Positions 184 through 49,726 of a DNA stretch of 64,000 nt are shown here, piece by piece. The number at the start of each line of letters is the position of its first letter. The stretch's first letter is position 1. Made by a program: the position numbers and the translations under genes. The notes below the pieces were generated by a model. It made no database searches. It was not told the DNA's origin and worked only from the letters and a program-made list of their open reading frames with translations. The stretch is from Escherichia phage EcS1: the sequence record NC_055721.1; one strand, written 5' to 3'.

Positions 184-701
184 TGTATTCCCATCACGAA
201 GAAAAGAGGTAGAGGAACTTCACCTTGAGAAGTATAATTCACCCGCATAGATTCCCATGCTTCATAGAACTTATACATCTCAGGGATACGAATTGGTTCT
301 TCAATTATAATCAATGTTCTCTGAAGCGAAAGGCCTCGATAACGATCTTTATTATCACTCAAGAAGTTTCTGATTGTATCATCAACTAATACACCTTTGA
401 CTTTATCGATATTTTCTAAAGCCATCCATCGACGCATAATACGGTCTCTGGTTTTTCGAGCATAAGGAGATTTGTTGGCTAGAACAATTACTGATTTACC
501 GTCAGCGAGCCATTCAGCAGCGAATCTAGAGACAGCTTCAGTTTTACCAGATTGACGACCACCGTCAATACGAAGTGTGCAATATTCTTGCAGCAATGAG
601 ATAGGGTGTAACCCTTTATTATTCTTGTCTTCTAAACAATCATCAGCACGGTTATTAAAAGCATGCATCAAGGTTAGATAGATTGGAGTTAAGTATTTCA
701 T
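180..701 (-). CDS. hypothetical P-loop NTPase
   Basis: 173-aa ORF with a Walker-A-like motif GGRQSGKT; no closer family recognised. Confidence 0.5.
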   Translation of the reverse strand: MKYLTPIYLTLMHAFNNRADDCLEDKNNKGLHPISLLQEYCTLRIDGGRQSGKTEAVSRFAAEWLADGKSVIVLANKSPYARKTRDRIMRRWMALENIDKVKGVLVDDTIRNFLSDNKDRYRGLSLQRTLIIIEEPIRIPEMYKFYEAWESMRVNYTSQGEVPLPLFFVMGIQ

Positions 702-951
702 GTTGCCTCAGTTAGGGTATGCTTAAGAGGGGACATCCATGTCAATAAATCCATCAGCCGAATGTAACCTTTAGAGACGCGGTCTCACCTTAATTAAGAT
801 TAAGGTAGGAAGGCCCATTATTAAGAGGGTCGGGGTCCTTTTTTCTCGATTGTAACTGGCTTTACCGCACTTGGGCTAGACCTTTTCACAGGTACCAGAA
901 GCCACTTCACTAGAGGAACGAATGTTCATAGGAGAGGTTCGAGTTAGCTTT

Positions 952-1401
952 TTACATATCTACCAATTTGCCGTTTTTAACTCGCATAACTTTAGCGGCT
1001 AATTTATTAGTTGGATTTTTCTGACGGACAATAGATGCTAAGCTATTAGCTGCTGTTTTAGCTGCGGCATAATCGTCATACCAATCACGACCAGTTTTAA
1101 TACGCTTAGTTCCTTTGTCTACTGTAACAATCCATTGAGATTGATCATTAGGGTCCATTTCTATGCGAATATCACCACCTGATACTAAACCAGATTGGAC
1201 CTTAGTAGGTTTGTTAGGGACAGTACCACCTAATGCTTTCGCCGCCTTTACAGCATCTTCATAACTCAGCCCAGCTTCAATAGTTTCAGCCTTGCGTCCT
1301 TTGCCACGATTAACATTAAAGGTTGTACCCCATCCAGGAACAATTTCAATATCCATTTCATGTTTTGCCGCTTCAGCTATAAATTCTTGATAAGTTTTCA
1401 T
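952..1401 (-). CDS. internal head protein (IPII/IPIII-like) with capsid targeting sequence
   Basis: N-terminus MKTYQEFIAEA matches the T4 internal-protein capsid targeting sequence with a gp21 protease site after the Glu; basic 149-aa protein. Confidence 0.6.
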   Translation of the reverse strand: MKTYQEFIAEAAKHEMDIEIVPGWGTTFNVNRGKGRKAETIEAGLSYEDAVKAAKALGGTVPNKPTKVQSGLVSGGDIRIEMDPNDQSQWIVTVDKGTKRIKTGRDWYDDYAAAKTAANSLASIVRQKNPTNKLAAKVMRVKNGKLVDM

Positions 1402-1415
1402 AATATCCTTTGTAG

Positions 1416-1829
1416 TTAGTTAATAGCCTTACCATAATGTTTATACCACAAAGGCTTTTGAGTAATCTTTTCGTCAAGACGTTCCTGAGATAAACGAAGA
1501 GCACGTTGATTAGGAATATAATCATTACACCACTCGACAGGAATATCTGTTATGGGCTTAACAGTAGTATCAGTAATTTTGAAACCACGTTTTAAGCATT
1601 CATTGATGAGCTTAAACTGACGATTATGTAAGAACTTTAACTTGTTATAGAAGAATGTAACATGACCAGTCCCAAGCAAAAAGGTATCAGAGATTTTGAA
1701 ATCAGAAACCTTTTTACCAGCAGCAATATGCTTACGAACAGCACCAAACACACGAGGGAGCTCGCGATACTCCGCCATTAGATGTTGATCAGTTAATTCA
1801 GAAACAGGTGTTAAGTTAATACGTGTCAT
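1416..1829 (-). CDS. denV: endonuclease V, pyrimidine-dimer DNA glycosylase
   Basis: [34 protein letters not shown]... is near-identical in pattern to T4 DenV; start placed at the MTRINL Met, 4 codons inside the longest ORF. Confidence 0.85.
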
Positions 1830-1884
1830 GATGTCCTCCATTAGTTTAGGAAGACATCATACCACAGTACTATCTTGTTGTAAA

Positions 1885-2695: not shown

Positions 2696-3169
2696 TTACT
2701 TCCAGTTAGCTTCATGGATTTCCTTTCCGTAAAGCTTCTGCATTACATTGTAAAGAGATGGGCCCATTACGTAGTTCCACATACGAGGTTGGATAAAAGC
2801 AAATGCATCTAGTTCCGGGAAACTGACGCCGTCTTCACCAGTGTGTTGAGCTGTACAAACACAACCCTTGAAGTCCTCGACTTCGACAGCAAATGGATAG
2901 ACAAACAAATGAATATCTTTATTGGGCGCGTAGTCGTGTCGTCCTAGGTCCACTAGGGCTCCAGGATTGTACTTCTCGAAACTGGTTTCTTCTGTACATT
3001 CACGGACTGCAGCTTGAAGAACAGTTTCGCCTTCTTCAACATGTCCTTTAGGAATGTCCCAACGATGACCCTTGCCTGCTAGTCCCGAACCCGTAACGCG
3101 TCCCATGAATAAATGGTGTTCTTTTGTGAAGAACAAAATACCTGCTGATAATTCTTTTACTTTAGTCAT
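2696..3169 (-). CDS. nudE: Nudix hydrolase
   Basis: Nudix box GHVEEGETVLQAAVRECTEETS; sits next to e as in T4. Start placed at an internal Met; the longest ORF would begin at 3208. Confidence 0.7.
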   Translation of the reverse strand: MTKVKELSAGILFFTKEHHLFMGRVTGSGLAGKGHRWDIPKGHVEEGETVLQAAVRECTEETSFEKYNPGALVDLGRHDYAPNKDIHLFVYPFAVEVEDFKGCVCTAQHTGEDGVSFPELDAFAFIQPRMWNYVMGPSLYNVMQKLYGKEIHEANWK

Positions 3170-3401
3170 TAAAGTCGTCCCCGAGCCATGATAGGCTATA
3201 GATTTCACGAATCGTTTCTTCTACATCAGATTCTTCATATTCTGAATTTTCACTAACCGCTATAGTCCAATCAGCTATTGGTGAAAAATAGTCTAAATTT
3301 TCAGATAATTTAGAATGGATGGAATCTAATGATTGTGAATCTTCAAAAGAATACAGGTAAGAATCACCAGATTCAGATTTAATATAAACTGCTACAGCCA
3401 T
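3162..3401 (-). CDS. hypothetical acidic protein
   Basis: 79-aa ORF co-oriented and tightly packed with neighbours. Confidence 0.4.
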   Translation of the reverse strand: MAVAVYIKSESGDSYLYSFEDSQSLDSIHSKLSENLDYFSPIADWTIAVSENSEYEESDVEETIREIYSLSWLGDDFND

Positions 3402-3706
3402 TAAAAGGCCTCCACAAAGTTATAGAGATTAAAATCTTTTGCATCATACTTACCATAATGAATGGCTTTCATAGTATCGTACATATCATAATACTTTTCA
3501 CGAGCCAGCGTACCAAAGAGATGAATCTTGAGAATGTCCCAATCTTTGCCTAATTCACCACTACTGAAAGAATAAACCTTTTCTACTATTTTAATAATAC
3601 GAAGAGCAACTTCTTGGTCAGTAGGTGAGACCCAACCCCAGTTATGATAAACTGTTCCAGTCACTACACCATCTTTAAAACTTGCTAATCCGGTTGGACA
3701 ACTCAT
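3401..3706 (-). CDS. hypothetical protein
   Basis: 101-aa ORF; start overlaps the upstream stop. Confidence 0.45.
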   Translation of the reverse strand: MSCPTGLASFKDGVVTGTVYHNWGWVSPTDQEVALRIIKIVEKVYSFSSGELGKDWDILKIHLFGTLAREKYYDMYDTMKAIHYGKYDAKDFNLYNFVEAF

Positions 3707-4056
3707 GAGCGAATACCTTTTATGAAATCAAGTGCTTCATCTTTTTTAGATGGTTTAGTTTCTTTAACTATTTTAGGTTTCACAACATCAAAAGTTCCTC
3801 TTTGGACTTGACCTACAAAGAACACCCAACGAGCTGTGATACTTGAAAATGTAATTATTGCTGCAGCTATAGCTAAAAATAACAGTGGACTTCCAAAGAT
3901 AGGACTAAAGAAGAATAAAGTATAATAAGTCCCGAAGCCAGCTATTGCGGTTGAACCAAAAAGAACCAGAATGAAGAAGAATACCCAGCCTTCTTCATTG
4001 TAAGAAGACTTTCGGTACCCACGATAAATGGTCTTAATCATTTTGAACCTCTGCAT
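3703..4056 (-). CDS. hypothetical membrane protein
   Basis: 117 aa with two long hydrophobic segments (FFFILVLFGSTAIAGFG..., LLFLAIAAAIITF...). Confidence 0.45.
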   Translation of the reverse strand: MQRFKMIKTIYRGYRKSSYNEEGWVFFFILVLFGSTAIAGFGTYYTLFFFSPIFGSPLLFLAIAAAIITFSSITARWVFFVGQVQRGTFDVVKPKIVKETKPSKKDEALDFIKGIRS

Positions 4057-4583
4057 CCTTGAATAAAGTCAGCAATTGATTTCTGTGCTTCATATTTCTT
4101 CTCTTTACGAATAGCAAAAGGAAGTTTAACTAATGACCAAATGAGTCCATCAATCCAAGTTGTTAGAACAGAAAATAAAATCAATGTAATGTTAAGAAGA
4201 ATCCCTACAAAGATTAATTCAATTGTAGAATGAGACTGAGTTATAAAAGTAAAATTAGCTAAAACAATCATTGCAATAGTGATAGGGCCTAAGACACGGT
4301 TGATTCCAGTATCCTTAGGTTTCTTAATTTGAGGCTGATAACCTCTTGCTACGTAAGCCATAGTATTTTCCTCATAATGAAGACCAAGTTCTTCGGCTAC
4401 TTCTATTTCGGCTGATTTACGAATTTGGCGATCATAGTCACCATATTTTTCTTCAAAATTACGTACTCTTCTACAGAGTTTACAATCACAGTCGTCACTA
4501 TACCCTTCGCTAGTAGGCCAAAGGTCATGATGTTGAACAACCATTTTTAATCTCCAAAATTGAGTGACCAGTATATCACTCAA
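4038..4583 (-). CDS. hypothetical protein, Cys-containing N-terminal region and C-terminal transmembrane segments
   Basis: 181 aa; CDCKLCRR motif near the N-terminus, hydrophobic helices at the C-terminus. Confidence 0.5.
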   Translation of the reverse strand: MSDILVTQFWRLKMVVQHHDLWPTSEGYSDDCDCKLCRRVRNFEEKYGDYDRQIRKSAEIEVAEELGLHYEENTMAYVARGYQPQIKKPKDTGINRVLGPITIAMIVLANFTFITQSHSTIELIFVGILLNITLILFSVLTTWIDGLIWSLVKLPFAIRKEKKYEAQKSIADFIQGCRGSK

Positions 4584-4650
4584 TCTATTTGTTGTACACT
4601 ACTTTTTAACGTAGGTGATGAACTCAAGAGCATCAGAGATTTCAGCGCGT

Positions 4651-4989
4651 CTAGCTTCGGCTTTTTTTTTGTTTCTTAGCTTCTTTTGTTTCTTTGAATT
4701 GTTTACCGATCCATCCGTCTTGAGAATGAACTTGACAGCTGCTGTCCATTTTAACCCACCAACACCAACGGTAAATCCAATGAGCCCAAACATAGAATCC
4801 TGATACTATAAAGGACCAAACCAAGATACCTGAGTCTTCAACTTTAAAAATGGTTTCTAATCCAGTATAAACTGTGATTGCTGTCAACGTGCTGAAAATA
4901 ATTGAACATAAAAGGAACAAGAAGAATTTCTCAGTCTTCCAGATTTCACGAGAGTTACGATAATACATGTACAGAGTTTCAATAATCAT
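4651..4989 (-). CDS. hypothetical membrane protein (may extend to 4599 by a -1 shift at an A9 tract)
   Basis: 112-aa ORF with transmembrane helices, ending just after an A9 run; the overlapping 4599..4793 ORF continues in the -1 frame. Confidence 0.45.
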   Translation of the reverse strand: MIIETLYMYYRNSREIWKTEKFFLFLLCSIIFSTLTAITVYTGLETIFKVEDSGILVWSFIVSGFYVWAHWIYRWCWWVKMDSSCQVHSQDGWIGKQFKETKEAKKQKKSRS

Positions 4990-5363
4990 TATTTCACCTT
5001 ACATTCTTTGATGAACATCTCTATTTTAAGACTAGTTTTATTAGCTTCGGCTGCAGCTTCTTCTATTTGATTTTGTAGTTTGAGCTTTTGATTCCGAAGA
5101 CGAGCTGGGATAAAATAAATCCATCCTAATGGTTTATACCCAAATAATGCTAAAAATTCTACAATTACAAGAGAATAACCACCAATTGCGAAAAACAGTT
5201 TACCAAACTCTTGTCCAGAAACACCTATAATTCCTAAAGTCATAATTAATATTAATAAAACAAGACACCAAACTAATAATCCAATAAGAGCAGAAGATAT
5301 TTTATCAGGTTTATCAAATGAAGTGCGTTCAAAAGAATTATAACGAAAATAATGAGCCATCAT
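4989..5363 (-). CDS. hypothetical membrane protein
   Basis: 124 aa with long hydrophobic stretches (LIGLLVWCLVLLILIMTLGIIGV...). Confidence 0.5.
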   Translation of the reverse strand: MMAHYFRYNSFERTSFDKPDKISSALIGLLVWCLVLLILIMTLGIIGVSGQEFGKLFFAIGGYSLVIVEFLALFGYKPLGWIYFIPARLRNQKLKLQNQIEEAAAEANKTSLKIEMFIKECKVK

Positions 5364-46755: not shown

Positions 46756-48036
46756 ATGAGCAAAATTCATACCCTGTTGCGCGAATCTACAACTACGAGC
46801 AGTTCGTCTCTTGGGCGTCCCGACCTCGTTGCATTGACTCGCGCCACGACTAAATTAATCTATAGCGATATTGTGGCAGAACAACGTACATCTCAACCAG
46901 TTGCGGCATTATATGGTATCAAATATTTGAACCCTAATGATGATATGACCTTTACTTCTGGTGCTACTTATGCTGGCCCATTCGGTACTAAAGAACGCAA
47001 AACGGTAGTTGAAATTACTGATGCAAATAAAGCAACATTTACAACAGGCAAATACTTCAAATATAAAGATATCGTTTATAAAGTATTAGGTGTTTCTGTT
47101 ACCGATGGGACTACTGAAACCGATCTTGATTTTATGATTCAAGAATCAATGGTTCTTTTGAATATTCGAAGTGTGCACGAAGCAGCTGAAACGGCTAAAT
47201 TTGAAGCCTCTGATGTAGAAGTATCTGAAGCATCATTTGAAGTGTCTAAATGGAATGCTCCAGTTAAATCACGTAAATTAAAAACAGCTTTGACTGTTGA
47301 ATTGATGCAAGACCTTGAAGCTAATGGATTCAATTCGCCTAATTTCGTAGAAGATCTTTTGGCTACCGAAATGGCTGATGAAATTAATAAAGACATTATC
47401 CAGTCATTGATTACAGTTTCTAGTCGTTATAAAGTTACTGGTGAAACAGATAAAGGCATTCTTGATTTAACTACTGTTGAAGACCCGTTAGCTGGACGTA
47501 AATTGTATCGTATGGTATGTGAAATCAATTCGCATATTCAAAGAACAACTTCTTATTCAGGAACTTATGTCGTTGCATCAACTCGTGTCGCTGCTGTATT
47601 AGCTTCTTCAGGTTGGTTAAAACATAAGCCAGAAGATGACCAATATCTGTCACCGGCTGCATATGGATTCTTGGCTAATGGTCTGCCACTTTATTGTGAT
47701 GCAAGTTCACCATTAGATTATGTTATTGTTGGTGTTAAAGAGGACTTTGGTGAACTAGAAATGGTTGGCTCATTGTTCTATGCGCCGTATACTGAAGGAT
47801 TGGATTTAGAAGACCCTGAACACGTAGGTGCGTTTAAGGTAATTGTTGACCCGGAATCTTTGCAACCATCTGTTGCATTACTGGTTAGATATGCTCTGTC
47901 AGCGAACCCTTATACAGTAGCTAAAAACGAGGCTGATGCTCGTATTATTGATGCTACTGATATGGATAAAATGGCAGGTCAAAGTGATATGTCTGTATTG
48001 CTTGGTGTTAAGTTACCGAAGTTAATTGCAGGCTAA
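46756..48036 (+). CDS. 24: capsid vertex protein gp24
   Basis: 426 aa (T4 gp24 427), paralogous to gp23. Confidence 0.9.
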   Translation: MSKIHTLLRESTTTSSSSLGRPDLVALTRATTKLIYSDIVAEQRTSQPVAALYGIKYLNPNDDMTFTSGATYAGPFGTKERKTVVEITDANKATFTTGKYFKYKDIVYKVLGVSVTDGTTETDLDFMIQESMVLLNIRSVHEAAETAKFEASDVEVSEASFEVSKWNAPVKSRKLKTALTVELMQDLEANGFNSPNFVEDLLATEMADEINKDIIQSLITVSSRYKVTGETDKGILDLTTVEDPLAGRKLYRMVCEINSHIQRTTSYSGTYVVASTRVAAVLASSGWLKHKPEDDQYLSPAAYGFLANGLPLYCDASSPLDYVIVGVKEDFGELEMVGSLFYAPYTEGLDLEDPEHVGAFKVIVDPESLQPSVALLVRYALSANPYTVAKNEADARIIDATDMDKMAGQSDMSVLLGVKLPKLIAG

Positions 48037-48075
48037 AAAAAAAAGGGAACCATATGGTTCCCTTTTTTTGTTTTT
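48035..48075. terminator. bidirectional intrinsic terminator between gene 24 and rnlB
   Basis: A10 - GGGAACCATATGGTTCCC palindrome - T7GT5; serves both convergent genes. Confidence 0.65.
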
Positions 48076-49078
48076 ATACTACTTCATGCCATTTTTCACG
48101 AATGGTAGCCATTACTATTTGCTGAAGTTCTTTCTTAACTAAGTTCGGTTGGTCAGCATCGATAAGTACGATACCTTCACGTTCTGCTTCGACAAAAATA
48201 TCTTGCATAGTAAGACCCATTACCTTACCGAAGTCTTTAGCTGTCACTTCACCAATATGACTCAAAACGTTGGACACACGGTTCCAGGTACTATATTCAG
48301 CTAATGTAGACAGTGCAACCTTATCTTGGTCGCTTAATACCGCAGCCGGCTTAATAGGCTTATCAGATTTAGCCTTTTCACTGAACTTAGAGTTCTTACA
48401 TTTAATAGCAACACGATTACCGTTAGCTAAAATCACTGGATAACAAGGCTTCAGAACATAGCCTTCTGCGATATTCTTTTCACCATGAGGCAAGAAACCA
48501 AAGTGAGCTATGTTAGCATATTCAATACCGTTGGCCACAGCAAGTTCATTATAATGATTAACTACAGAATCAAAGTCATTAACTAACTGAGATAATTCTT
48601 CGAAAGAGCCACGAGCTATTAGTGGTGCTACTTTAAAACCAAAGGTACAGCACATACGTTCAACCATGAAATCATCAGCATAAGTGCCTTCTTGGTCGTG
48701 TTCTGACTTAATTAAGATATCGAATACGTAGAAGTCTTTCTCACCGTAATCCATACCTTTTTGAATTCCACCACCTGCGAACTCGCCGAAAATTTGATAC
48801 GAAGATGCTGTACCACAGATAGAGTCTTGAAGAAACTTAATAGACTTATCATATTTCTTCATAATAATTTCATGAGCAAAGAAACTTTCACCGGGCAGAA
48901 TAGGTCCTGTCCGCTTACACGGAGTGACTGCGTCACGACTAATAATTAGAGAGAAGTTTGTACCATGAATCTTTTCACGTGCTACCCATACGCCAGTGTC
49001 ATTACCAGAGAAACGAATCTTCTCGATGAACTTACCGTTGTAATGATTCTCTAAAGAGGAGTACTTTTCAAATGTCAT
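48074..49078 (-). CDS. rnlB: RNA ligase 2
   Basis: 334 aa (T4 Rnl2 334); nucleotidyltransferase lysine motif KIHGTNFS. Confidence 0.85.
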
Positions 49079-49176: not shown

Positions 49177-49449
49177 TTAGAACTTAATTTCAACCCATTC
49201 GCCATCACGTTGACAACTACGCCATTTGGCTTCAATACCTTCATCTTCGAGCCATTTAAGGAAAACGTCTTTATATTTCGAGAATTTTGAAACATTCTTC
49301 AAAGGATAATAATGGAATTCTCTGCGTCCTTGTTTAGCAACATCAGTGATACACTTTTCAAAGTCTTTTTTAAGTTCAGTGTATTCTGAACTTGAAATAG
49401 AATCGGCAATAGCACCATAGTAAGTAGCTAATTTAGTAGTACGTGTCAT
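49177..49449 (-). CDS. hypothetical protein (24.2-like position)
   Basis: ORF downstream of the HTH protein gene; start placed at an internal Met to avoid overlap. Confidence 0.4.
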   Translation of the reverse strand: MTRTTKLATYYGAIADSISSSEYTELKKDFEKCITDVAKQGRREFHYYPLKNVSKFSKYKDVFLKWLEDEGIEAKWRSCQRDGEWVEIKF

Positions 49450-49450
49450 T

Positions 49451-49726
49451 TTAGGCCTCGGTTTTGGATAAGGTAGCGTGTGCATTGATATTTTTAACCA
49501 ATTTTTTGTGATGCAAAGTTGATGTAGTCATTCGCTTGCGATAAACAACTTTCTCGCGTGATTTGAATTTGATTTTAAGCTTTTCACCTTCAGCCCAATG
49601 TTTAGCAGCTTCTCGAGCTGAAATACCTAATTTTTCAGCTACATCACCAAATGTCATTTTTAAATCTTCAATCATTGTATAAATTTGAACAGCAATATTC
49701 ATAGTCACCTCATGTTTGTAGGTCAA
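49451..49726 (-). CDS. hypothetical HTH DNA-binding protein (24.3-like position)
   Basis: 91 aa with a helix-turn-helix-like segment FGDVAEKLGISAREAAKHW. Confidence 0.45.
   Translation of the reverse strand: MTYKHEVTMNIAVQIYTMIEDLKMTFGDVAEKLGISAREAAKHWAEGEKLKIKFKSREKVVYRKRMTTSTLHHKKLVKNINAHATLSKTEA

What the first reader, a model, noticed from the sequence alone, without database searches (positions are those of the whole stretch)
4599..4989. A9 slippery tract joining two overlapping membrane-protein ORFs: candidate -1 frameshift or slippage site
The 112-aa membrane ORF (4651..4989) ends three codons after a run of nine A on the coding strand (T9 on the plus strand at 4662..4670). The overlapping ORF 4599..4793 is in the -1 frame and continues for 20 more codons past that point. 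The sequence A-AAA-AAA is a classical tandem-slippage site, so ribosomal frameshifting or transcriptional slippage would give a C-terminally extended isoform; alternatively the tract is a phase-variable or miscalled homopolymer.
Basis: seen in the sequence. Interest (0 to 1): 0.5.

Follow-up and report, generated by a model that had tools for sequence, protein, structure and literature searches.

The report
One extra A splits ordinary gene
A small membrane-protein gene of the T4-like phage EcS1 appears cut short because its run of A's is one base longer than the reading frame allows, most likely through a sequencing miscall or a recent mutation, not a programmed frameshift signal.

Summary
The downstream ORF, however, is in the +1 frame of the 112-aa ORF, not the -1 frame. 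A -1 tandem slip on A_AAA_AAA therefore cannot reach it.

The +1 extension is the gene's real C-terminus:
- Codon usage downstream of the run fits only the +1 frame.
- Removing one A gives a 129-aa protein. It aligns end to end with 13 contiguous relatives (122-134 aa) found in T4-like metagenomic genomes at the same genomic position, including the conserved tail (SDALEFITYVKK* against RDALYFASSLKK*).
- In the seven relatives read at DNA level, no A/T run in the gene is longer than 6, so the tract is not a conserved signal.

Published E. coli data argue against efficient rescue. RNA polymerase slippage at A/T runs mainly inserts bases, which leads to the wrong frame here. Deletion on poly(A) was not detected. 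Ribosome sliding is weak at A9.

Verdict: an ordinary gene interrupted by an A8-to-A9 length change. It is either a homopolymer miscall or a recent genuine insertion, and reads are needed to decide. The depositing lab used 454 pyrosequencing for its 2017 phage genomes. Interest is low.

The parts
4651..4989 (-). Annotated 112-aa ORF (EcS1 KNT65_gp144). It holds the N-terminal 109 residues of a small two-helix membrane protein, then three out-of-frame codons (SRS) and a stop.
   Evidence: ORF list. Identity to P0001 = Escherichia phage EcS1 gp144. Matches phrog_9350 over profile positions 1-106 of 118. Matches the 13-relative profile over positions 1-109 of 129. Hydrophobic segments at about residues 22-44 and 54-79.
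4662..4670 (-). A9 homopolymer (T9 on the plus strand) inside the Lys-rich linker. This is where the reading frame is lost. A8 would read CAA AAA AAA GCC (Q K K A).
   Evidence: Sequence. It is the only homopolymer-associated ORF interruption in the window. The longest A/T run in the seven relatives' genes is 5-6.
4599..4661 (-). The gene's true C-terminal coding segment, now in the +1 frame: AEARRAEISDALEFITYVKK plus stop (stop codon at 4599..4601).
   Evidence: Codon-usage frame test gives +14.9 bits, against 14.3 +/- 6.1 for genuine in-frame windows. The tail motif ranks 2nd of 66,950 six-frame positions. Ungapped alignment to the C-termini of P0004 and other relatives. Profile gain of 11.0 bits, reached by 1 of 1657 null tails.
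4662..4793 (-). Upstream part of the mechanical ORF 4599..4793. It is the +1-frame read-through of the transmembrane-coding region and is not coding in its own right.
   Evidence: Only the last 20 codons match any family. The rest overlaps the conserved frame-0 sequence.
4559..4584 (-). 9-bp hairpin in the 53-nt spacer between the +1-frame stop (4599) and the next gene's ribosome-binding site and ATG (4545). It marks the natural end of the gene.
   Evidence: and the sequence.

Best explanation
This is one ordinary gene for a 129-aa inner-membrane protein. Its parts are an N-terminal MII..LY.Y motif, two transmembrane helices, an RWC motif, a Lys/Glu-rich linker, and a conserved AL-F tail.

The gene's reading frame is broken in the deposited EcS1 sequence by one extra A in a homopolymer of the Lys-rich linker (A8 read as, or mutated to, A9). 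Standard decoding of the sequence as written gives a 112-aa product that keeps both helices and lacks the tail.

The extra base is either a homopolymer-length miscall in the assembly or a genuine, very recent insertion by replication slippage in the sequenced stock. I put these at roughly 0.45-0.5 and 0.35-0.4 respectively.

If the insertion is genuine, a small amount of full-length protein could still arise incidentally, from mRNAs with A8 or A11 or from rare +1 ribosomal slips. A8 revertants would also be frequent in the phage population. Neither would be an evolved recoding device.

Shown: the frame relation, the homology of the +1 segment, and the absence of the tract in relatives.
Inferred: the origin of the extra base.
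For: 1. Frame: the downstream ORF is +1 relative to the 112-aa ORF, and deleting one A fuses them into 129 aa.
2. Codon usage: the 57 nt after the run score +14.9 bits as coding in the +1 frame. True-frame windows of this phage average 14.3 +/- 6.1. The -1 frame scores -10.5 and frame 0 scores -55.
3. Relatives: exhaustive and profile searches found 13 relatives of 122-134 aa. All are contiguous ORFs, and EcS1's 112 aa is the only short one.
4. Alignment: the fused product aligns with P0004 (also 129 aa) from residue 1 to 129, E = 2e-20. It ends SDALEFITYVKK* against RDALYFASSLKK*.
5. Profile built from the 13 relatives only: A8 product 86.9 bits (profile 1-128 of 129), A11 85.6, -1 product 79.0 (1-111), annotated product 77.7 (1-109). 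The tail gain is 11.0 bits against a null of 2.6 +/- 1.8, reached by 1 of 1657 null tails.
6. Independent curated profile phrog_9350: 40.2 bits and 1-117 of 118 for the fused product, against 35.4 bits and 1-106 for the annotated one.
7. Synteny: the relatives lie in the same T4-like neighbourhood.
8. Tract conservation: the longest A/T run in the seven relatives' genes is 5-6.
9. Gene spacing: the extended gene ends 53 nt before the next start codon and is followed by a hairpin. The annotated stop would leave 105 nt of non-coding sequence in an otherwise tightly packed gene array.
10. Platform (circumstantial): EcS1 was published by Saad, Askora, Kawasaki, Fujie and Yamada. Two 2017 phage genomes by Yamada, Kawasaki and Fujie were sequenced on Roche GS Junior 454. 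That chemistry is known for homopolymer-length errors (my own knowledge).
Against: - No reads, second isolate or near-identical genome exists in any collection searched. Artefact and genuine insertion therefore cannot be separated.
- The EcS1 paper is not held, so the sequencing platform for this genome is not established.
- No other homopolymer-split gene is visible in the 64 kb, so there is no sign of systematic miscalling. However, this is the only coding run longer than 7.
- The perfectly preserved downstream coding signal is equally what selection on a recoded product would leave.
Confidence: 0.85

Rival explanations
1. Programmed (selected) recoding into the +1 frame. RNA polymerase slippage on the A9 tract makes a fraction of mRNAs with A8 or A11, or ribosomes shift +1 on AAA-A. 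The phage would then make a fixed ratio of a tail-less 112-aa form and a tailed 129-aa form.
For: - A9 is the run length at which slippage becomes significant in many bacteria, and genes disrupted at such runs can be rescued (PMC1088944).
- The +1 segment keeps full coding quality and the family tail.
- Both products would keep the two membrane helices.
Against: - None of the 13 relatives is split, and none of the seven examined at DNA level has a run longer than 6. A recoding signal is normally conserved.
- The required event is a 1-nt deletion or a 2-nt insertion. In E. coli, slippage at homopolymers is overwhelmingly insertion, and deletions inside runs are rare (PMC5574713).
- E. coli RNAP gave no detectable deletion rescue on the poly(A) runs tested, against about 10% on T8 (PMC6260861).
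- Ribosome sliding is robust at A11 but gave little product at A9 or A10 (PMC4363877).
[quoted passage not shown] - There is no strong downstream structure.
Confidence: 0.06
2. One reading: -1 tandem ribosomal slippage on A_AAA_AAA gives a C-terminally extended isoform.
For: - The heptamer A AAA AAA is in the correct phase for tandem slippage in frame 0.
- The -1 frame is open for 27 codons after the run.
Against: - The -1 frame is not the frame of ORF 4599..4793.
- Its product (..KKKPKLDALKSLMLLSSSPTLKSSVQQID) has off-frame codon usage, -10.5 bits.
- It adds only about 1 bit against the family profile and stops matching at position 111 of 129.
- There is no stable stimulatory hairpin or pseudoknot 5-9 nt downstream.
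- It is not conserved in relatives.
Confidence: 0.02
3. A DNA-level contingency (phase-variable) locus. Replication slippage toggles the tract between A8 (tailed protein ON) and A9 (tail OFF), giving the phage population heritable heterogeneity in an accessory membrane protein.
For: - Long A-runs are hypermutable by replication slippage (PMC1088944).
- T4 homopolymer frameshift hot spots are classical (my own knowledge).
- The gene lies in a variable accessory array of small membrane proteins.
Against: - Relatives have no long run at this position, so there is no sign of selection for hypermutability.
- An 8/9-nt run arises trivially from Lys codons (Q-K-K = CAA AAA AAA).
- There are no population data.
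Confidence: 0.05
4. ORF 4599..4793 is an independent overlapping gene with its own start (ATG 4793, preceded by AGGA).
For: An ATG with a weak AGGA four bases upstream is present.
Against: - Its first 44 codons are the +1 reading of a conserved transmembrane-coding region and match nothing.
- Only its last 20 codons are homologous, and they continue the family alignment exactly where frame 0 leaves it.
Confidence: 0.01

Closest known systems
Homopolymer-length frameshift, either as a sequencing artefact (pyrosequencing-type miscall) or as a Streisinger replication-slippage mutation at an A-run
   Same: A single-base length change inside a mononucleotide run splits an otherwise intact, conserved ORF. 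The downstream segment keeps full coding quality in the shifted frame.
   Different: Nothing distinguishes it, except that the two origins cannot be told apart without reads.
Thermus thermophilus dnaX A9 transcriptional slippage, as summarised in PMC1088944
   Same: Nine A's on the sense strand near the 3' end of a gene, with all three frames accessible downstream.
   Different: In dnaX the slipped product is the shorter one and both products are functional. Here the templated product is the short one. The homologous frame needs -1 or +2 nt. No relative of the EcS1 gene has the run.
Shigella mxiE / spa13 and IS-element ORF fusions by slippage at A/T runs (PMC1088944; PMC5009743)
   Same: Two overlapping ORFs are fused into a longer product when the transcript differs in run length from the template.
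   Different: Those fusions use insertion of one nucleotide, the direction favoured by bacterial RNAP, and they are required for function. Here a one-nucleotide insertion leads to the non-homologous frame.
Programmed -1 ribosomal frameshifting, e.g. E. coli dnaX (A AAA AAG) and phage tail-chaperone G/GT
   Same: An in-phase X XXY YYZ heptamer (A AAA AAA).
   Different: The conserved extension is not in the -1 frame. There is no downstream stimulator and no conservation.
phrog_9350 and its ORF-A-like subgroup: small two-helix membrane proteins of T4-like phages, function unknown
   Same: Same N-terminal motif, two hydrophobic helices, RW(C) motif, charged linker and AL-F tail. Same genomic neighbourhood upstream of nudE and e.
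   Different: EcS1's copy is the only one whose tail is out of frame.

Membership tests
ORF-A subgroup of phrog_9350 (small T4-like phage membrane proteins) | N-terminal MI(I/T)K.LY.Y motif, two transmembrane segments and an RWC motif | tested here: met
   Alignments. Invariant or near-invariant columns are Y7, E20, F22, R74, W75 and C76. Hydropathy. phrog_9350 E = 1.8e-8 for the annotated ORF alone.
ORF-A subgroup of phrog_9350 (small T4-like phage membrane proteins) | Charged linker followed by a C-terminal AL.F(A/I)...(K/R) tail a few residues before the stop, in one continuous ORF | tested here: not met
   The tail is present and homologous, but only in the +1 frame. As written, the ORF is not continuous. 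It becomes a full member with A8.
ORF-A subgroup of phrog_9350 (small T4-like phage membrane proteins) | Position in the accessory array upstream of nudE (NUDIX) and e (lysozyme) | tested here: met
   In the window, NUDIX-like ORF 2696..3208 lies downstream. Relatives are in loci L012-L018.
Programmed -1 ribosomal frameshift site | In-phase slippery heptamer X XXY YYZ | tested here: met
   A AAA AAA in frame-0 phase.
Programmed -1 ribosomal frameshift site | A functional or conserved coding sequence in the -1 frame | tested here: not met
   Codon-usage score of the -1 frame is -10.5 bits. There is no family match beyond profile position 111 of 129. The conserved tail is in the +1 frame.
Programmed -1 ribosomal frameshift site | Stimulatory RNA structure a few nucleotides downstream | tested here: not met
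   Only a weak 5-bp hairpin directly follows the run. The stable hairpin is about 80 nt downstream.
Programmed transcriptional slippage site | Run of at least about 9 A or T in the coding region | tested here: met
   A9 at 4662..4670. Threshold as in PMC1088944.
Programmed transcriptional slippage site | Conservation of the run among homologs with the same two-ORF organisation | tested here: not met
   13 of 13 relatives are contiguous ORFs. The longest run in the seven genes read at DNA level is 5-6.
Programmed transcriptional slippage site | The polymerase's favoured slip direction gives the functional frame | tested here: not met
   The functional frame needs -1 or +2 nt. E. coli RNAP favours +1 insertions and showed no deletion rescue on poly(A) (PMC5574713; PMC6260861). 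These are literature data, not measured on this sequence.
Programmed transcriptional slippage site | Heterogeneous transcripts and both protein products detected | not testable with these tools
   Needs RNA-seq or cDNA sequencing and proteomics of EcS1-infected cells.
Programmed +1 ribosomal frameshift site (prfB type) | Slippery P-site codon followed by a stop or slowly decoded A-site codon, with an upstream Shine-Dalgarno-like stimulator | tested here: not met
   AAA can re-pair at +1, but the A-site codon is AGC, the stop is three codons further on, and the upstream sequence GAAGCTAAGAAAC has no SD-like element.
Sequencing artefact (homopolymer miscall) | Reads or an independent sequence showing a different run length | not testable with these tools
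   No reads, no second assembly and no near-identical contig. Circumstantially, the depositing lab's 2017 phage genomes used Roche GS Junior.

The most novel reading that the evidence does not exclude
The A9 tract is genuine and is used. Through RNA polymerase or ribosome slippage, or through rapid A8/A9 switching during replication, EcS1 makes both a tail-less and a tailed version of an accessory membrane protein. That would be a lineage-specific, recently evolved switch in a T4-like phage, and it would work through the unusual deletion or +2 direction.
Probability: 0.08. Interest if true: 0.45.

Novelty: already known. Interest (0 to 1): 0.1.

Why it matters
The main value is in annotation. 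EcS1 gp144 should be treated as a 129-aa protein, or flagged as frameshifted, and the site should not enter lists of candidate recoding signals.

It also shows why the exact frame relation must be checked before invoking -1 slippage. Here all three frames are open after the run, and only one is homologous.

If the A9 proved genuine and the long form were made at a substantial level, it would be a rare case of gene expression through deletion-type slippage by E. coli RNA polymerase in a T4-like phage. Nothing in the present evidence points that way.

One side product is a set of 13 previously unlinked relatives, and recognition of a shared C-terminal tail across an array of small T4-like phage membrane proteins of unknown function.

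Tried and rejected
- Megablast and tblastn of the locus and the fused protein against the phage collection found nothing for this gene. EcS1 itself seems absent from that collection.
- blastn 'distant' matched only the neighbouring genes in Winklervirus phages.
- Scans of viral contigs and metagenome contigs found nothing, whether by protein patterns or by a DNA pattern allowing any run length from 6 to 12. No close copy exists in which to compare run length.
- An exact-protein look-up found no encoding contig.
- A whole-length profile of the gp142 paralog group could not separate the three C-terminal alternatives, because that group has a shorter linker. This was resolved only after the exhaustive HMMER search found the true subgroup.
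- I searched for a second homopolymer-split gene as a sign of systematic miscalls. The only candidate, at 49.2-49.7 kb, is two normal genes with stop, GAGG and ATG.
- The other long run (A10 at 48,035) is a terminator arm, not coding.
- The EcS1 genome paper and the related isolation paper could not be read, so the platform is unknown.
- An independent overlapping gene at 4599..4793 was considered and rejected.
- Pfam gave no family for any of the four neighbouring proteins.

Full report
**What is in the sequence**

The region is transcribed from the minus strand. ORF 4651..4989(-) encodes 112 aa. On the coding strand, a run of nine A occupies 4662..4670. Frame 0 reads CAA AAA AAA AGC CGA AGC TAG, so it stops three codons after the run. 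The mechanical ORF 4599..4793(-) overlaps it and continues 20 codons beyond the run.

The frame relation is not. 4989-4793 = 196 = 3x65+1, so the downstream ORF is in the +1 (= -2) frame of the 112-aa ORF. Fusion therefore requires one A fewer (A8, 129 aa) or two more (A11, 130 aa). A10, or a -1 ribosomal slip, leads into the third frame. That frame also happens to be open (27 codons) and reads KPKLDALKSLMLLSSSPTLKSSVQQID.

The run as such is not statistically unusual. There are two A/T runs of 9 or more in 64 kb, against 4.0 +/- 2.0 expected from first-order Markov simulations. The other one (A10 at 48,035) is an arm of a bidirectional terminator.

**Source**

The 112-aa product is identical to Escherichia phage EcS1 KNT65_gp144. 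EcS1 is a T4-like phage and the only member of the genus Kagamiyamavirus. Its nearest relatives share about 66% intergenomic similarity (PMC10132071). That explains why no close copy was found in the following:
- the phage collection;
- IMG/VR;
- JGI metagenomes;
- the index of encoding contigs.

**Which frame is coding after the run?**

I built a codon-usage model from 47 long ORFs of the window and tested the 57 nt downstream of the run:

| Frame | Score |
|---|---|
| +1 | +14.9 bits |
| -1 | -10.5 bits |
| 0 | -55 bits (it contains stops) |

For comparison, genuine in-frame windows of the same length average 14.3 +/- 6.1 bits and 99% are above 0. Off-frame windows average -28.7 and 1% are above 0. 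The segment 4599..4661 is therefore real coding sequence in the +1 frame.

**Homology**

The neighbouring gene 3703..4056(-) (EcS1 gp142, phrog_9350) is a distant paralog (BLASTP E = 3e-4 over the full length). It has full-length homologs in 184 T4-like phage records.

A position-specific matrix was built from the last 11 aligned residues of the non-EcS1 members of that family. With it, SDALEFITYVK (window 4637, one residue before the +1 stop) ranks 2nd of 66,950 six-frame positions, behind only gp142 itself.

phrog_9350 aligns with the fused protein over profile positions 1-117 of 118 (40.2 bits). The annotated product covers 1-106 (35.4 bits) and the -1 product 1-113 (37.6 bits).

The decisive step was an exhaustive HMMER search of 1.84 billion representatives with the annotated ORF, followed by a profile search. 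Together they gave 13 closer relatives. Their properties are:
- They are 122-134 aa long, and several are exactly 129 aa.
- All are continuous ORFs.
- All come from metagenomic or Logan assemblies, including T4-sized contigs of 170-175 kb.
- Those read at DNA level lie in the same neighbourhood as in EcS1: after a DUF7277/DUF7275 gene and before the NUDIX (nudE) and lysozyme genes.

The A8 product aligns with P0004 from residue 1 to residue 129 (E = 2e-20). It ends ...AEISDALEFITYVKK* against ...NEQARDALYFASSLKK*.

A profile built from the 13 relatives alone gives these scores:

| Product | Score | Profile positions covered |
|---|---|---|
| A8 (+1 frame) | 86.9 bits | 1-128 of 129 |
| A11 (+1 frame) | 85.6 bits | 1-128 of 129 |
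| A10 (-1 frame) | 79.0 bits | 1-111 of 129 |
| annotated | 77.7 bits | 1-109 of 129 |

The tail contributes 11.0 bits. The null distribution, from 1657 stop-anchored 20-mers taken from all six frames of the window, has mean 2.6 +/- 1.8. One null tail reaches the observed value, and it is an off-frame chance peptide.

At the nucleotide level, the longest A or T run in the seven relatives' genes is 5-6. The A9 tract and the split organisation are therefore private to the EcS1 record.

**Gene layout**

With the +1 tail, the gene ends at 4599. That is 53 nt before the next gene's ATG (4545, preceded by GGAG), and a 9-bp hairpin lies in between. With the annotated stop there would be 105 nt of non-coding DNA, in an array whose other genes abut or overlap.

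**Mechanisms considered**

(a) *-1 tandem slippage.* The heptamer A AAA AAA is in phase, but this leads to the wrong frame. That frame has neither coding character nor homology, and there is no downstream stimulator. Rejected.

(b) *Transcriptional slippage.* A9 is long enough for bacterial RNAP to slip (PMC1088944), but the homologous frame needs a deletion of one A or an insertion of two.
- Genome-wide data for E. coli show that slippage in A/T runs is essentially insertion. Deletions starting inside homopolymers were under 1% of transcription deletions (PMC5574713).
- Reporter assays with E. coli RNAP found no deletion rescue on the poly(A) runs tested, against about 10% on T8 (PMC6260861).
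- The common +1-nt slip would produce the non-homologous -1 tail.

(c) *Ribosome sliding or a +1 shift.* Sliding is robust at A11, but little product was seen at A9 or A10 (PMC4363877). The classical +1 signals are absent: there is no stop or hungry codon in the A site and no upstream SD-like element.

(d) *Phase variation by replication slippage.* This is possible for any long run. However, there is no conservation of the run and there are no population data.

(e) *An independent overlapping gene.* Rejected, because only the last 20 codons of ORF 4599..4793 have any homology, and they continue the family alignment exactly where frame 0 leaves it.

**Origin of the extra A**

There are two ordinary explanations, and they cannot be separated here.

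*A homopolymer miscall.*
- The EcS1 genome paper is Saad, Askora, Kawasaki, Fujie and Yamada, Arch Virol 2018. It is not held.
- Two 2017 phage-genome papers by Yamada, Kawasaki and Fujie state that they used the Roche GS Junior system with the GS De Novo Assembler.
- That pyrosequencing mis-estimates long homopolymers is my own background knowledge, not a tool result.
- This evidence is circumstantial, not proof.

*A genuine recent A8-to-A9 insertion.*
- The Lys-rich linker is made of AAA/AAG codons, and Q-K-K is CAA AAA AAA.
- Long A-runs are replication-slippage hot spots.
- The downstream segment shows no decay, so any real mutation must be recent.

I found no other homopolymer-interrupted gene in the window. 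But this is the only coding run longer than 7, so that says little.

My split is about 0.45-0.5 artefact, about 0.35-0.4 genuine mutation, and about 0.1 some form of used slippage or phase variation.

**Comparison with known systems**

Formally, the site resembles the disrupted ORFs with 9A/9T runs catalogued by Baranov et al. (PMC1088944), and the dnaX (Thermus), mxiE/spa13 and IS-element cases. It fails the features that make those cases programmed: conservation of the run, and a slip direction that yields the functional frame.

As a protein, it is a member of an uncharacterised family of small two-helix membrane proteins of T4-like phages (phrog_9350 and the subgroup found here). The one defect is that its tail is out of frame.

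**Verdict**

The programmed-frameshift interpretation is not supported, and the miscalled or mutated homopolymer alternative is. The finding is ordinary, and its practical consequence is an annotation correction. Interest 0.1.

Noticed in passing
window 3703..5363 (-); also L004, L006, L007 positions 469..1878: Four consecutive small membrane-protein genes (EcS1 gp142-gp145) belong to different PHROGs: 9350, 2203, an ORF-A-like member of 9350, and 36051. All end in the same kind of tail, acidic-F-I/A-x-x-(I/C/L)-(K/R), a few residues before the stop: ALDFIKGIRS*, IADFIQGCRGSK*, ALEFITYVKK*, IEMFIKECKVK*. Neighbouring paralogs in Karamvirus phages carry it too: EEFIAECRGKK*, LENFISRCRIKR*, ALNFIQGIRGTR*. 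This looks like a shared C-terminal peptide on an array of accessory membrane proteins. Function unknown.
   Followed up: partly
L004 (Enterobacter phage vB_EclM-UFV01) and L006 (Cronobacter phage Pet-CM3-4), locus positions about 1181..1519: An intact 112-aa ORF (MKYNPKMNIRHFEREI...NLENFISRCRIKR) is unannotated in both records. It is annotated in Erwinia phage COW86c (L007, 1181..1519).
   Followed up: partly
window 48035..48077: A10 + GGGAACC ATAT GGTTCCC + T7 forms a textbook bidirectional intrinsic terminator between the convergent genes 46756..48036(+) and 48074..49078(-). It is the only other homopolymer of 9 or more in the window.
   Followed up: yes
window 4545..4598 (-): A 9-bp hairpin (ATTGAGTGA / TCACTCAAT, 4559..4584) sits in the spacer after the +1-frame stop. 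It overlaps a sigma-70-like TGTACA-17-TATACT match (4598..4570). It is followed by GGAG and the ATG at 4545. That ATG is a more plausible start for the next gene than the TTG at 4583 listed by the ORF finder.
   Followed up: partly
window 4579..4661 (-): After the A9, both non-zero frames are open: +1 for 20 codons and -1 for 27 codons. An extension exists for either slip direction, but only the +1 one is homologous or has coding character.
   Followed up: yes
window 49177..49726 (-): Two small ORFs (91 and 102 aa by the ORF finder) overlap mechanically and would fuse if an A6 run lost a base. In fact they are two normal genes, arranged as stop TAA, GAGG, then ATG. It is not a second split gene.
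   Followed up: yes
L012-L018 (metagenomic T4-like contigs): In all relatives examined, the ORF-A-like gene lies shortly downstream of a roughly 311-322-aa DUF7277/DUF7275 protein, either adjacent or separated by at most two small ORFs (L016). It lies a few small genes upstream of NUDIX and lysozyme. The number and identity of the small genes in between differ in every genome, so this is a hyperplastic accessory region.
   Followed up: no
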